From: Octopus vulgaris
Taxonomy: Eukaryota
DNA length: 64,000 nt
Reading direction: 5' to 3'
Assembly: GCA_951406725.2 (NCBI GenBank)
Contig: OX597830.1
Span: 29,512,001-29,576,000, forward strand
The notes below the pieces were generated by a model that saw only the letters and a program-made list of their open reading frames with translations, searched no databases and was not told the DNA's origin. Made by a program: the position numbers and the translations under genes. Below, piece by piece: positions 4,490 to 59,102 of the stretch (positions are counted from its first letter, which is position 1; each line of letters begins with the position of its first letter).

Positions 4490-4790
4490 ATATGCGAGGT
4501 ATTGGTATCCAGAAGTCCCAAGTTGGAAGGTAAAGCTAAGTGAGTGCCATGGTAGAACCGTAAACTCTCGGTTCGATACTAATGCGAGTGAGGAATCTAA
4601 TGCCGGTCATGTATAAGCATGAATATATGAAATCAAATGAGTCAACAAAGACAAGGCTATGTGGAATCTTCAGGACATTTATTAAGAGAAAGTTAGTCTT
4701 ATAGAAGGTTCTGGGATATTAGGGATATTCTTTCATCAGAGACGATGTGAGATAGTTAACTAGAAGGTAATAATAGAGTTCATTATAAAG
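4490..4790 (-). mobile_element. Probable PLE terminal fragment with decayed hammerhead (4696-4743)
   Basis: Minus strand gtct-CTGATGA-...atatccca-GAAC-cttcta-TA-agac. Stem I and CUGAUGA are intact; GAAA and stem III have decayed. Abuts (TA)n. Confidence 0.45.
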
Positions 4791-5114
4791 ATGCGACTCT
4801 CTACCCTATACCGTTTTTCTCCTCCAGCCTTCTCTCATTCCCTTTCTCTCCGTTTTCGGTCTGTCTCTCTCTCTCCCCCGCTCTCTCTCGTCTTTTTCTT
4901 TGTCTCTCTTTCTCTTTCATTGCTCACATGTGGTCATCGTCCATCTTTCTTTTCATTGCATGACCATCTTCCTTTTCCTGCACGGACGTTTAAAAGAACG
5001 GACGTGTTTATTTGTCTCTCTCTTCTGTCGTTTCTCTTTTCAAAATAAAAAAAAAATGTTTCTTCCAGCTTCCATCTTTTGTTTTTTGTGAATTCTCCCT
5101 ACACACACACAGGC

Positions 5115-5550
5115 ATATATATATATATATATATATATATATATATATATATATATATATATATATATATATATATATATATATATATATATAATATATA
5201 TATATATATATATATATATATATATATAATAATATTTTAACGTTAGGCGTAATTTGTTGTTTGTTTAAAATATGAAGAACTACATATTGGAGAAGCTGAC
5301 TATATTGCTGTTTCCAGTTTAAATTATCACTTAAAAGTTTGATGTAGTACTGGACGGAGTAGTAGTAGTAGTAGTAGTTGTAGTAGTAGTAGTAGTAGTA
5401 GTAGTAGTAGTAGTAGTAGTAGTAGTAGTAGTAGTAGTAGCAGCAGCAGCAGCAGCTGCAGCATTATAGTAGTAGAACTTTTATTAGCAGCAGCAGCAGC
5501 TGCAGCATTATAGTAGTAGTACTTTTATTAGCAGCAGCAGCAACAACAAC
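5115..5550. repeat. (TA)n, then (AGT)n/(AGC)n with a ~44-bp tandem duplication
   Basis: agcagcagcagctgcagcattatagtagtag.acttttatt occurs twice at ~5445-5530. Confidence 0.9.
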
Positions 5551-6269
5551 ATCAAGAGTAGCAGAAACTGCATCGTTAGTTGTAAATGTTGTTATTGTTG
5601 CATTTCATGTCCATTATTTTTATGACCGTTATTTGATTTTTTTTTCAATATTCTACGTTATTTTGTTCATCGTTTCTTTAGATTTATTTGTTTTCATATG
5701 TTTATTTTATTTGTTTCCTCAAATGACATTAACCTTGCTATATTATTTGTGATATATTTATTTATCGACTGTCGCCTTTCTGACATCGGTATAGTCGTAT
5801 ATATACATACATATATATATATATATATATATATACATAGATACACACACACATACATATATATATATATATATATATATATACATAGATATACATTTGT
5901 ATGTATACATACATATACTTGTGCATTTTCGTGTGTATAGTTTCCTCGGTTTACTCCTTTTAAACCGTTTCAGTATCATTTATATTTTTATACATTGTAA
6001 TTCTTGAGGTTTAATAATTAATGTTTTACATACATTTGTTTTTGTCAACTCAGTCTCAATTTTTTCTACAGTCTATACTTCAAATCATTTTTACAGACTT
6101 TAGATGTATAAAGTTAGACTGATATTAATGTAATGTGAATTTAAAAAAAAATTGAGCTTAGTATTTTTTGCTATTTATGCATTTAGATTTTTTGTTCTCC
6201 CTTTTTGCTATATTTCGCTTTTACCATCATAAATATATAAGTATTCTCTCAGTATTTGTTTTACTGCAA

Positions 6270-54897: not shown

Positions 54898-54933
54898 CTT
54901 TTACGTTTCGAACCTACGCTCTGCAACAGAAAG
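54898..54933 (-). ncRNA. Ultra-minimal hammerhead variant in a PLE end (54820-54960)
   Basis: cuuu-CUGUUGCA-gagc-guag-guuc-GAAA-cg-UA-aaag. Stems I and II are 4 bp each, stem III is the palindrome ACGU, and the core is altered. Confidence 0.55.
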
Positions 54934-57900
54934 GAATCAGAGAAAATAAACAGAGAGTGTATTATCTAAGAAATCGGTTCGGCAAAATTGACCGCAAGAA
55001 TAAAATAAAATAAATTTTGGGGTTGATTTGACGAATGTGACTGACAGAAATAAACGATAAAGATGAATTGTTCTATGATTTAGTTTAAACAATTCTCTAA
55101 GTTGGCACACACACACATATGGATAAATCACAAGCAAACACATTTCAAGTGTGCTATGTCCTTGTTTTGCATATAACGCTCAAAAGTATCATAAGCCTCA
55201 TACATAACACTACATAAAAACTACACGAACGAATATACATAAACGCATATACAACCCACCCACATACATACAGACACACGCGCCTACTTTGCTCACCCTT
55301 CTGCTTCGCTCTCACTTTCTCTCTCTCTCTCTCTCTCTCTCTCTCCATCCCTCTCGTTCTTTTACTATAGGCCTTCTCTTTCATTCTTTGAATCATTTTT
55401 CTCTTTTTGTTGTACATTCCGTAAAGTCATAAATTTAGTCTAATCATTATAAGCCACATCAGATTCTAATTAACTGCTACTGCGACTACTTATGGTTTTT
55501 ATCCTTAATGCGTTTGATGGTGACTTTTCTTTCATTATTTTTTTTTTTTTTTTACTTATTCTTCATATTAATTTCATGAACTACTCTGTCAAAGTGTGCA
55601 CATGTTCTGATGTAGTATTTATGCGTGTTAAACTGTCATTTGTCTACATCACTTTAATGTTTAAATTCTGATTGGCAATTCTTGATTTAATAGACACATG
55701 GGTAAATCCAACCGTGCTCACCCCTTATAATTAGGTGCATCTAACACTACACTAGCCAACGTGTCTCTTCTTCAAGGAGTTTGAGTGTAAGTGTTGAGGA
55801 ATATTTGGTTACTCTTTGTGAATATATTGGACCGTCTAAACATATTATTTTCATAATGTGGATGTGCGTGGCCTAGTGGTAAAGATGTTTGACTTATGAT
55901 CATAAGGTTATAGTTTCAATTGCTGAATTGGTTGACGCGTTCTGTTCTTGAACAAGACATTTAAATTCACCCTGCTCCAGTACACTCAGCTGGTAAAATG
56001 AGTAATCTTGAGACACATTAGTTCAGGTGGGGATGATATATGCCATGGAAACCGGTCCTATGAATGTATATGACTCGTGAAGGAACTTTAATTTTACTTA
56101 TTAATAATATTCTCTCCTCATTCTCTCTGCCTGTCTGTCTCTGTCTCTGTCTTTGTCTGTCTCTCTCTCTGACAAATGTGTCTATTTGAGTCTGTATGTA
56201 CATGTGTATGGTTGTATATATGTATGTGTGAGAGTGTTTGTACGTGTGTTCGTCAACTATGACACAACTTGGTAGTTGTGTTTGGATACCATCATTAGAG
56301 TTGAATTTGGTGCATGTATTCCACTCCTGTCTCTTGTTCAACGATGATTCCTCATTCCCCCATTCGTGTTAGCGACTTTGAATAAATGGATTTATAGTTT
56401 CTCTTTCTATTCTTTTCTAATAGGTGATGAAGAAGTTCTATACTTTCGTAAACAATTCTGTTTCGGTTGATTTCAAATAAGTCTGCAATATATGTATATC
56501 TATAACTCATTAACATATGCTTTTTTTTTTATAGTATGATCTTTGAAGAAAAAGAAGGTATTGTTCCTATCTTCCAAAACATATTAGGTTATCTGTCAAA
56601 CACAGACATTTTCACGTGGCTGCTCTACTGGTAATGTGTGCGTAACAGTTTTCCTTAAATTGCATTCTAACGCTTACAAAATGGTTGAAAAACCTACGGT
56701 CGTGAATAAGAATGAGATTGCACCTGGAACGTTACCTTCTAAAGCACAAGTCTGGGCACGGTTATTTATGAAATAAAAGCAGTAACTCATGCATTCTCCA
56801 CAGCACCGGGGTTATCCAAAGGAAAGGCAAAGGCTGATACAGACAAATTCAATGTCTGTAGAATGGAACCCTCTGGTCATAGGTTTGCTAGTCATGGGCA
56901 AACCTAGAATTAAACTATGAAAAGAAAAAAATGGCTTTAGTGAATAATTGCTATTGTTTAAAGTAAGCTGTTGCAAACTTCAAATAAATGGCTTACGTTT
57001 GTGTAAACGAAGAACCAGAATGCTCCACTATCCTTTTCAATAATTCTAAAGTCTTATGAATGCCTTCAGTATTTGGAGGAAGTACAATTGTGCCATTAAA
57101 AAAACAGAAACAGAAAAGAAGAAAAACAGAAAAAACAAAAACAGAAAGAAATAGTAGCCCTTTTTCGATACACTTCAGTCCCTGGCAATGCGCTTATAAA
57201 GAATCAAGTTTATAATAGACACACTCACACATCCCTCATGTTTCTAGTCTACGAGGTCTGTTTGTTGATATTTTAAATATAGTTTTAATAGATGTTTATT
57301 GTTTACGCTGATAGTGTTTTTACCGTAATGTCTGTTACAACCGCGTCTAGTACTGGTATTCCATCATAAAAAACTGTATTGTTGTTATTCACATTGCTAC
57401 AATTATGGTTACAGTTTTTTGTACGATTTACTTTCGTTGCTCTGAAATAGCTTTTGTTCTTGTTGTATTTGTTACTCCTATTTCTGTGAATGTCTGAGCA
57501 GCTGTTGTTGTCAGTAATATATGTTACCATTTACAACTCGATCGTTCTGCTGATATTTCTCGAGAAATTCAACTAAATTTAGGAATATGTTCAATGATAA
57601 ATGCCAAAGCTTCTAATCACCAGTCTAAAATTATTAATGTATTTCATCTGAAATTTCTCAGTGTTTGAAGTTAGAAAGTAGGGAGAGTTCTCTTTGTCCA
57701 TAATTTCCTGGTGTGTTATAATATTGGTTCAATTTTGGTAGTCTAATGTCACAAATACAGACGATTTCTTTAGCCAACTAGATCCACTTCAGTACTCAAA
57801 CGTCACTTATATAGCTGTGCCCTAAATCAAGAAAGTTAAGATCAACCTCAGCAGGATTTGAATCCGTACGTAACTAAAGAGAACAGTGCATTATGGCTAC

Positions 57901-59061
57901 TATTTTAAGGATTCTCCTTTCAAAAATATATATTGACACCCACCAGCTTCTTAAATTCAATATATCTCGTGCATTCTTTGCAGACAAAACGTGATTGTAA
58001 TTCCTAAGAATTAATAAACAATATTCATATTTCTAATCATTAAAGTAATTAATAAGAGAACACTTAATGCTCATGTAAGCCAAAACCAACAGAAATACTG
58101 GTTTATAGTTTTATATTTTCATGGACGATAATATAATATGTTGTGCTCAGCTCCATCTCAAATATTAGCAGTGAAAAATATTATAAACTCTTCAAATGTA
58201 CTGCTAATTACATGATTATATATGATGTTAGTGATTTGATGGAAGTTTGTCCTCATGCACTACACTCTAAGATTAAAGATATAGAAGGTGAGATACATCC
58301 CATCGTTTTTCGACCTACGTAGCTACATAGTTGTTATATTTATGACGTTTGGAAGTCGAACGATCGCACTGAGATTTCTATAATCGCTCATCTCGTAAGG
58401 AAAGAATCAGTCGATTCGTGTCTTGTAAAGCTTTGATTATAATTGTTTCTATCGTTAAATAAAAGACGGCAGCCATTGCATGCGAAGTTATGTCATTAAT
58501 AATTTGCACTAGATTATTATGAGAGACATTAATTTTTATATCAGACACCGAATTTCAAATTGGTTAAATGACATCAATATCAGTCATTAAAAGTTTTGAA
58601 TCCTGGAATTAAATCAACTAAATAAACAGACATTTGAGAGTTCTGAAGCAAATCATCAAGAGAGACTGTTCATAGTAATGAAACCTTCCGAAAAATCGTA
58701 CAGAATGAAAAAATATATGCGATAAGACTTTGCTCATAGATATTCATAATCAATTGATACAGGTCGCAGCAGTTACTGAGAAAGACAACAATAAAATAAT
58801 AACTATTGTAAAGAAGCATTTTAAGGGACGTTAAGTGAGGCTTTCCGGTCAAGTCGTGAGGTAAATATTATTTCAGAATGAATATACATACATACATACA
58901 TATATATATATATATATATAGATCAATAAATGGTGGGGTTGTGTTGACCGCACGTGGAGAGATGATAAGTAAGGAAAACATTTTTTAAAAATGCAGAATG
59001 CTCAAATGAAATAAAATTTTAATAAAATGAGAAAATGATAAAATATATAAATATATATATT

Positions 59062-59102
59062 TATTCAACCGGTTTTCGTCAATGTATGACTTGTCAAGAA
59101 TA
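59062..59102 (-). ncRNA. Minimal hammerhead variant with U3-A8 covariation
   Basis: uauuc-UUGACAA-guca-uacau-ugac-GAAA-accgg-UU-gaaua. Stem I 5 bp, stem II 4 bp, palindrome AACCGGUU; one extra A after GAAA. Confidence 0.65.

What the first reader, a model, noticed from the sequence alone, without database searches (positions are those of the whole stretch)
4696..59102. Census of diverse minimal hammerheads at (TA)n edges: several PLE families using TA microsatellites
At least five unrelated sequence families sit against (TA)n and carry the same RNA architecture with different stems. They are 22297 (CUGACGA) with its relative 46805 (CUGAAGA), 59062 (UUGACAA), 54898/51737 (CUGUUGCA or truncated), 19530 (UUGAAAA) and decayed 4696 (CUGAUGA). 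In the non-decayed copies stem III is a short palindrome or near-palindrome (ACGAUUGU, ACGUACGU, AACCGGUU, ACGU, AAAUUU). Known: PLE pLTRs carry minimal type I hammerheads with palindromic stem III that cleave as dimers. One motif here is physically linked to a GIY-YIG ORF end. Inference: much of the anonymous TA-flanked DNA is PLE debris, at roughly one motif per 10 kb.
Basis: partly seen in the sequence, partly recalled or inferred. Interest (0 to 1): 0.7.

Follow-up and report, generated by a model that had tools for sequence, protein, structure and literature searches.

The report
Penelope retroelement tails with hammerhead remnants
Several short stretches beside TA repeats carry hammerhead-shaped RNA motifs, only one of them intact, and they are likely the cut-off tails of Penelope-like jumping genes, an arrangement already described in invertebrates, so this is real but ordinary.

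Summary
Partly confirmed, and of a known kind. All seven motifs are at the stated places, but only 22297 is an intact type I minimal hammerhead (HHR); it alone passes a strict descriptor. 59062 and 19530 have exact U3-A8 cores and, together with 22297, exceed shuffles (3 vs 0.03 expected, descriptor tuned afterwards). 46805 is a diverged relative of 22297. 54898/51737 belong to a very high-depth repeat that abuts (TA)n in many other contigs. 4696 lacks GAAA and is unsupported. The nearer TA tract is 3' of the motif in 6 of 7 (one tie). Only 59062 runs into a PLE ORF: a 5'-truncated, likely Neptune-type GIY-YIG piece with TA on both ends. Family 22297 resembles Hydra-clade 3' ends with fold-back copies. 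Craig et al. 2021 already list (TA)n-inserting, HHR-bearing PLEs, one from Octopus. The claim that much TA-flanked DNA is PLE debris is not shown: 9 of 114 TA flanks, about 4% of the window. The scan noted a similar PLE tail with an HHR in another genome.

The parts
22119..22520 (+). Family A insertion: inverted 5'-truncated arm (22119-22268) head-to-head with a direct arm that runs about 89 nt further to its 3' end; TA-rich repeats on both sides
   Evidence: Self-BLAST 314 nt at 95% inverted; sequence; folds as one hairpin, -234 kcal/mol
22297..22339 (+). Intact type I minimal hammerhead: stem I CCAC/GUGG, CUGACGA, 5-bp stem II, GAAA, self-complementary stem III ACGAUUGU, cleavage triplet GUA
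   Evidence: Only strict-descriptor hit; dimer co-fold gives the double-hammerhead structure
22211..22252 (-). Opposite-strand copy of the same hammerhead, one A of GAAA missing
24207..24466 (-). Family A sibling, also fold-back, truncated before the hammerhead; TA on both sides; its inverted arm stops at the same family position as in 22119
   Evidence: 90% over 185 nt to 22334-22515; alignment
46539..46905 (-). Diverged family A relative; hammerhead 46804-46905 with CUGAAGA, long hairpin stem II, stem III ACGUACGU, 2 of 4 stem I pairs; ends at (TATG)n/(TA)n
   Evidence: 79% over 157 nt to 22366-22518; score 142 vs null max 46; stem II fold z -2.2
54802..54957 (-). Family B copy; hammerhead-like 54898-54933 with stem I CUUU/AAAG, core CUGUUGC+A, 4-bp stem II, GAAA, ACGU
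   Evidence: Depth thousands of times the flank in 3 DNA runs; TA-like loose ends before 54802 in 150, 132 and 171 contigs
51662..51763 (-). Family B copy truncated inside the hammerhead (5' core missing); 3' end at a long (TA)n
   Evidence: 79% over 101 nt to 54823-54922; alignment
58920..60003 (-). 5'-truncated PLE, 1,084 bp, (TA)n on both ends: GIY-YIG end, 3' UTR, hammerhead, 143-nt tail
   Evidence: Sequence; high depth in every bin from 58963 to 60003
59740..60003 (-). C-terminal 87 aa of a PLE GIY-YIG endonuclease, likely Neptune/Nematis type
   Evidence: 55% over 82 aa to RT+GIY-YIG protein P0005; 77 of 79 relatives carry the CX2-5CxxC linker plus CxxC-YIG
59062..59102 (-). U3-A8 minimal hammerhead with 5-bp stem I and 4-bp stem II, one extra A before stem III
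19375..19590 (-). Segment D, probable PLE tail; hammerhead-like 19530-19568 with UUGAAAA, bulged G, 5-bp stem II, GAAA, AAUU, broken stem I; 3' end at (TA)n
   Evidence: no second copy in the window; repeat status not tested
4696..4743 (-). CUGAUGA with a 4-bp stem I partner but no GAAA and a poor stem II; not supported as a hammerhead

Best explanation
These are likely the 5'-truncated 3' ends (pLTRs) of at least three, probably four, unrelated families of Penelope-like retroelements, each carrying a minimal hammerhead motif 65-270 nt upstream of an end that abuts (TA)n, with one intact motif and the rest damaged. Shown: motif anatomy, 3' polarity towards TA, fold-back structure of family A, a GIY-YIG end joined to 59062, and high repeat depth of families B and C. 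Inferred: the GIY-YIG endonuclease nicked AT-rich microsatellite, the reverse transcriptase copied the RNA from its 3' end and stopped early, sometimes adding an inverted second copy. In the parent elements the hammerheads would cleave only as dimers through the palindromic stem III of tandem copies. The solitary copies here would be inert, and 22297 would be buried in a 150-bp hairpin if transcribed. Element C is likely Neptune-type; family A looks Hydra-like by motif style only.
For: Strict hit and shuffle excess. Dimer fold of 22297. Three family A copies with shared 3' ends at TA, two with inverted arms ending at the same position. Element C: TA-EN-UTR-HHR-TA with continuous high depth and RT+GIY-YIG relatives with the Zn-finger linker. 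Family B: TA before its end in over 130 contigs in each of three DNA runs, and variant contigs that leave the alignment at 54890-54891 and 54934-54936, i.e. at both edges of the motif (table 7, list cut). Literature: min-HHRs, U3-A8 cores, mostly single copies in truncated PLEs (PMC4209133); 26 of 27 listed Hydra families prefer (TA)n and carry HHRs near the 3' end, including Hydra-1_Obim (PMC8557442 supplement).
Against: Six of seven motifs break the consensus. Only 1 of 7 reaches an ORF in the window. 54898 is at chance level by descriptor alone. 19530 has no second copy and no relative was found. No single listed contig spans both the ORF and the hammerhead of element C. Rfam gives no hammerhead hit even for 22297. 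Family consensus cores could not be read because the variant table was cut. Descriptors were adjusted after seeing the motifs. No cleavage was tested.
Confidence: 0.82

Rival explanations
1. Families A, B and D are non-autonomous retrozyme-like or SINE-like elements that never had an ORF and borrow PLE proteins; only C is true PLE debris.
For: No ORF remnant beside six of seven motifs; family B depth falls to single-copy level by 55069; animal retrozymes are reported as non-autonomous PLE derivatives (10.64898/2026.07.22.740005, part 1 of 5 read).
Against: Retrozymes are defined there as tandem arrays, and no motif here has a same-strand tandem partner. Strong 5' truncation is the norm for PLE copies, and family A shows the PLE fold-back form.
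Confidence: 0.2
2. Apart from 22297 and its relatives, the motifs are chance matches in AT-rich DNA, picked because TA tracts are everywhere.
For: 35% of positions lie within 220 nt of a TA tract; relaxed descriptors give 7-29 hits per shuffled window; 54898 and 4696 need relaxations at or near chance level.
Against: 3 vs 0.033 for the exact-core descriptor; 59062 sits 640 nt behind a PLE endonuclease on the same strand; family B keeps stem II, GAAA, ACGU and stem I in two copies; 3' polarity in 6 of 7. This rival probably holds for 4696 only.
Confidence: 0.1
3. The TA tracts grew after insertion from short AT-rich ends or target duplications, so the association reflects microsatellite birth, not endonuclease targeting.
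For: The 54802 copy has only a short TA run where other contigs have long ones; many TA tracts in the window lie inside or beside an abundant SINE-like repeat (23 of 114 flanks).
Against: Element C and two family A copies have TA on both sides at different truncation points; published tables give (TA)n as insertion preference for Hydra and Naiad families.
Confidence: 0.15

Closest known systems
[quoted passage not shown]
   Same: Type I layout, short palindromic helix III, U3-A8 core variant, bulged base after A9, mostly solitary copies from truncated PLEs, several families per genome, opposite-strand pairs.
   Different: No cephalopod rows seen in the supplement parts read (1-2 of 3); the CUGUUG core of copy 54898 is outside their consensus; TA flanks are not a theme in the parts read.
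Hydra clade PLEs, e.g. Hydra-1_Obim and Penelope-13_HM (Craig et al. 2021, PMC8557442)
   Same: (TA)n insertion preference; HHR about 100-200 nt from the 3' end; 8-9 nt stem III of the form AC..GU; U-U closing of stem II as in 46805; inverted 5'-truncated copy giving HHRs on both strands as in 22119-22520.
   Different: Family A has no ORF here, so its clade is untested; four window motifs were not found in that supplement by exact word search; the extension beyond the inverted arm is about 85-90 nt, longer than the 30-40 bp tail described.
Neptune/Nematis PLEs
   Same: C-terminal GIY-YIG with C, H, H residues of the CCHH motif retained; relatives have RT plus CX2-5CxxC linker; microsatellite bias for Neptune is stated in PMC8557442 citing Arkhipova 2006 (not seen).
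   Different: Only 87 aa survive; no tree was built, so Neptune versus Nematis is not resolved.
Non-LTR retrozymes (10.64898/2026.07.22.740005)
   Same: Type I HHR, no ORF, PLE-related.
   Different: Defined as tandem arrays with an HHR in each unit; all motifs here are solitary.

Membership tests
Type I minimal hammerhead | Core CUGANGA (or U3-A8) plus GAAA and UH | tested here: met
   Met by 22297, 46805, 19530; 59062 with one extra A; not met by 54898, 51737, 4696
Type I minimal hammerhead | Stems I and II both paired | tested here: inconclusive
   Both paired in 22297, 59062, 54898; stem I broken in 46805 and 19530; stem II poor in 4696
Type I minimal hammerhead | Palindromic stem III allowing a double hammerhead | tested here: met
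   Dimer co-fold gives the full double hammerhead for 22297 only; intermolecular stem III also forms for 46805 and 59062
Type I minimal hammerhead | Compensatory changes across family copies | tested here: inconclusive
   Too few copies; variant table was cut; collection scans empty
Type I minimal hammerhead | Self-cleavage as a dimer | not testable with these tools
   Needs an in vitro assay
EN+ Penelope-like element | RT with C-terminal GIY-YIG endonuclease | tested here: inconclusive
   Endonuclease end present for element C only; no RT in the window; relatives are RT+EN
EN+ Penelope-like element | 5' truncation, inverted partial copy, tail on one end | tested here: met
   22119-22520 and 24207-24466; element C truncated inside the EN
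EN+ Penelope-like element | Interspersed high-copy repeat | tested here: met
   A: three copies in the window; B and C: depth thousands of times the flank; D and 4696 not tested
Neptune/Nematis clade (element C) | CCHH motif and CX2-5CxxC linker | tested here: inconclusive
   Linker lost by truncation in the copy; present in 77 of 79 fetched relatives; no phylogeny
Hydra clade (family A) | RWK/DKT motifs, CxCX5C linker, no CCHH | not testable with these tools
   No ORF for family A in the window and no genome held
Non-LTR retrozyme | Tandem units each with an HHR | tested here: not met
   No same-strand tandem HHR pair in the window

The most novel reading that the evidence does not exclude
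Family B, one of the most abundant repeats at this locus, carries a family-wide CUGUUGA core (U at the normally invariant A6) while keeping stems I-III; a natural A6U hammerhead kept through thousands of copies would mean either altered metal dependence or a non-cleaving role for the fold in PLE mobilisation. Only one copy here shows position 6, and it also has a private-looking A9C change, so decay is not excluded.
Probability: 0.3. Interest if true: 0.45.

Novelty: new member of a known kind. Interest (0 to 1): 0.2.

Why it matters
Modest. It gives a practical handle: hammerhead cores 65-270 nt upstream of (TA)n can flag ORF-less PLE tails that repeat libraries leave unnamed. It does not change what is known about PLEs, whose hammerheads, fold-back insertions and (TA)n bias are published, and PLEs are already put at 6.83% and 190 families in Octopus vulgaris (PMC13282606 supplement). 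A family-wide A6U core would be of interest to ribozyme specialists.

Tried and rejected
No genome is held for this window, so no genome-wide census. Rfam: no hammerhead among the 150 of 368 rows shown, none for 22275-22520 or 62674-63578. Viral scans and genome-contig scans were empty. No RNA holder listed; run X14 is only guessed to be RNA, so nothing is claimed on expression. The idea that the 24207 copy starts at the cleavage site was dropped: alignment shows it ends before reaching the motif. Translating hammerhead-to-TA tails gave no PLE N-terminus. A shared word between 19530 and element C was not significant. Monomer folding z-scores are unremarkable except 46805. The 62674/63454 direct repeat has CUGAUGA but no valid stems; its ORF gave no Pfam or Atlas hit. 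ARAGORN found no tRNA. Paper search for hammerheads in cephalopods listed 20 of 2,688 papers, none holding the term; this is a weak negative.
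Full report
Setting. The window is 33.8% GC with 97 TA tracts of 12 nt or more in 57 clusters, and holds mariner-like, LINE and SINE-like repeats (the LINE and SINE labels are recalled). I take it to be octopus-like from recall of those repeats; no call names the organism. No genome is held.

Observation. A strict type I descriptor returns only 22297-22339, and 1 of 200 shuffles, made in 400-nt blocks with microsatellites left in place, gave any such hit. 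Allowing up to two deviations gives 4 hits against 1.6 +/- 1.2, and up to three 14 against 7.5 +/- 2.5, so relaxed matches say little singly. Exact core plus four Watson-Crick pairs of stem II closing on GAAA gives 4 hits against 0.18 (0 of 1000 shuffles); one, 20116, lies in a mariner-like repeat. Adding a self-complementary stem III leaves 22297, 59062 and 19530 against 0.033; here one extra A was tolerated after seeing 59062. 46805 is found by a Hydra-style descriptor (3 hits vs 0.47, 6 of 400 shuffles), while 54898 needs two core mismatches, where the window is not above chance (17 vs 12.8). 4696 has CUGAUGA and a 4-bp stem I partner but no GAAA; such partial matches number 5 against 0.72, two of them the 22297 pair, leaving three at Poisson P 0.04. 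I do not count it.

TA association. All seven lie within 214 nt of a tract of 12 nt or more, where 35% of positions are within 220 nt; with tracts of 30 nt or more it is 4 of 7.

Family A. 22119-22520 is an inverted arm joined head-to-head to a direct arm that runs about 89 nt further to (TA)n; the inverted arm holds a second hammerhead copy lacking one A. A second fold-back copy at 24207-24466 stops short of the hammerhead, and its inverted arm ends at the same family position. 46539-46905 is a 79% relative with a long stem II hairpin. Two copies of the 22297 motif co-fold into the textbook double hammerhead, but a transcript through the locus would form a single hairpin of -234 kcal/mol that buries it.

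Element C. 58920-60003 (-) reads (TA)n, the last 87 codons of a GIY-YIG domain, 640 nt of UTR, the U3-A8 motif, 143 nt, (TA)n. The peptide is 55% identical over 82 aa to a 744-aa RT+GIY-YIG protein; 77 of 79 fetched relatives have the CX2-5CxxC linker, the Neptune/Nematis mark per PMC8557442. Contigs of three DNA runs pile up in every bin from 58963 to 60003 (X1 73,000-184,000 against 52-65 in the flank; summed depth, not copy number). No listed piece spans both ORF and motif. A profile of the 79 proteins finds no other PLE ORF in the window, so 1 of 7 motifs is ORF-linked.

Family B. 51662-51763 and 54802-54957 are 79% alike. Depth at 54715-55068 is about 290,000 in X1 against about 50 nearby. 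Contigs leaving the alignment before 54802 continue as TA-like sequence in 150, 132 and 171 cases (agreement about 0.5), and some variant contigs leave at 54890-54891 and 54934-54936, the edges of the motif. The 54898 core reads CUGUUGC; copy 51737 has A at position 9, so that change looks private, but position 6 is seen once. The variant table was cut, so the family core is unknown.

Segment D. 19530 has an exact UUGAAAA core, a bulged base, G10.1-C11.1, a 5-bp stem II and AAUU, but 2 of 4 stem I pairs. It has no second copy here and scans found no relative. I rate it probable.

Census. With hand-set boundaries, hammerhead-linked segments make 2,585 bp (4% of the window) and 9 of 114 TA-cluster flanks; 23 flanks are SINE-like, 4 other inverted or direct repeats, 2 LINE, 76 unassigned.

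Mechanism. Shown: anatomy, polarity, fold-back, ORF link, repeat depth. Inferred from known PLE biology: endonuclease nicking at (TA)n, target-primed reverse transcription from the 3' region, early termination, occasional inverted copy; dimer-dependent cleavage in tandem parents. Published assays found min-HHR monomers inactive and dimers weak (PMC4209133), and hammerhead mutants did not block insertion in vitro for an Anolis Poseidon element (PMC11167929, passages), so a needed role for cleavage is uncertain.

What is known. PMC4209133 (main text parts 1-2 of 4, supplement parts 1-2 of 3) reports thousands of mostly solitary min-HHRs per genome in several families, the U3-A8 core and opposite-strand pairs. 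PMC8557442 (passages, section 11, supplement parts 1, 2, 52 of 59 and two searches) lists (TA)n preference for 26 of 27 Hydra families, with HHRs near the 3' end, including Hydra-1_Obim, and for cephalopod Naiads. PMC13282606 (passages, supplement search) gives PLEs 6.83% of O. vulgaris. PMC3088659 and PMC7151607 (passages) describe A6C as a rare, slow, Mn2+-favouring variant; in one search listing no hammerhead-focused paper held 'A6U'. 10.64898/2026.07.22.740005 (part 1 of 5), PMC12602865 and PMC8967140 (passages) add context only. Arkhipova 2006 was not seen. Unread supplement parts and Repbase may already hold these families. An earlier scan note (e1-9829721, another genome) reached a similar verdict; it is not evidence.

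Verdict. Real, mostly decayed PLE tails of a known kind; new family members at most. Interest 0.2.

Noticed in passing
window 62674-63578: A 905-bp element with a 125-nt 100% identical direct repeat at both ends and (TA)n on both sides, like a young PLE partial tandem; the repeat holds CUGAUGA without valid hammerhead stems; the internal 159-codon frame has no Pfam or Atlas hit.
   Followed up: partly
window 22431-22520 and 24207-24290: In both fold-back family A copies the direct arm outruns the inverted arm by about 85-90 nt, longer than the 30-40 bp PLE tail in the literature.
   Followed up: partly
window 28062-28230, 47796-48345, 20776-21198: Further fold-back repeats beside TA or (ATT)n tracts with no hammerhead found; possible PLE ends.
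   Followed up: no
window 20680-20750 (-): CUGAUGA at 20745, 65 nt upstream of a (TA)n tract and next to an inverted repeat, without GAAA; possible decayed motif. Similar partial matches at 9746 and 10670.
   Followed up: no
window 6268-6840, 37126-37437, 39178-39773, 41489-41769: A dispersed repeat family with an internal tandem unit of about 183 nt in variable copy number.
   Followed up: no
window 18893-19302, 27593-28018, 34682-35095, 37913-38312, 53298-53740, 63704-64000: An abundant SINE-like repeat with an internal TA/CA tract accounts for more TA flanks than the PLE tails do.
   Followed up: partly
window 31242-31486: A 67-nt direct repeat (97%) flanks an inserted 113-nt piece of the 6268 family, like a long target duplication.
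   Followed up: no
window 54958-54996: About 39 nt interrupt family B in this copy; other contigs continue directly with an A-rich stretch.
   Followed up: no
window 610-1008, 16810-17752, 19754-20387, 52135-53017, 29819-30478, 48765-49262: Decayed Tc1/mariner pieces (Pfam HTH_Tnp_Tc3_2 at 610-1008) and two LINE-like fragments (labels recalled).
   Followed up: no
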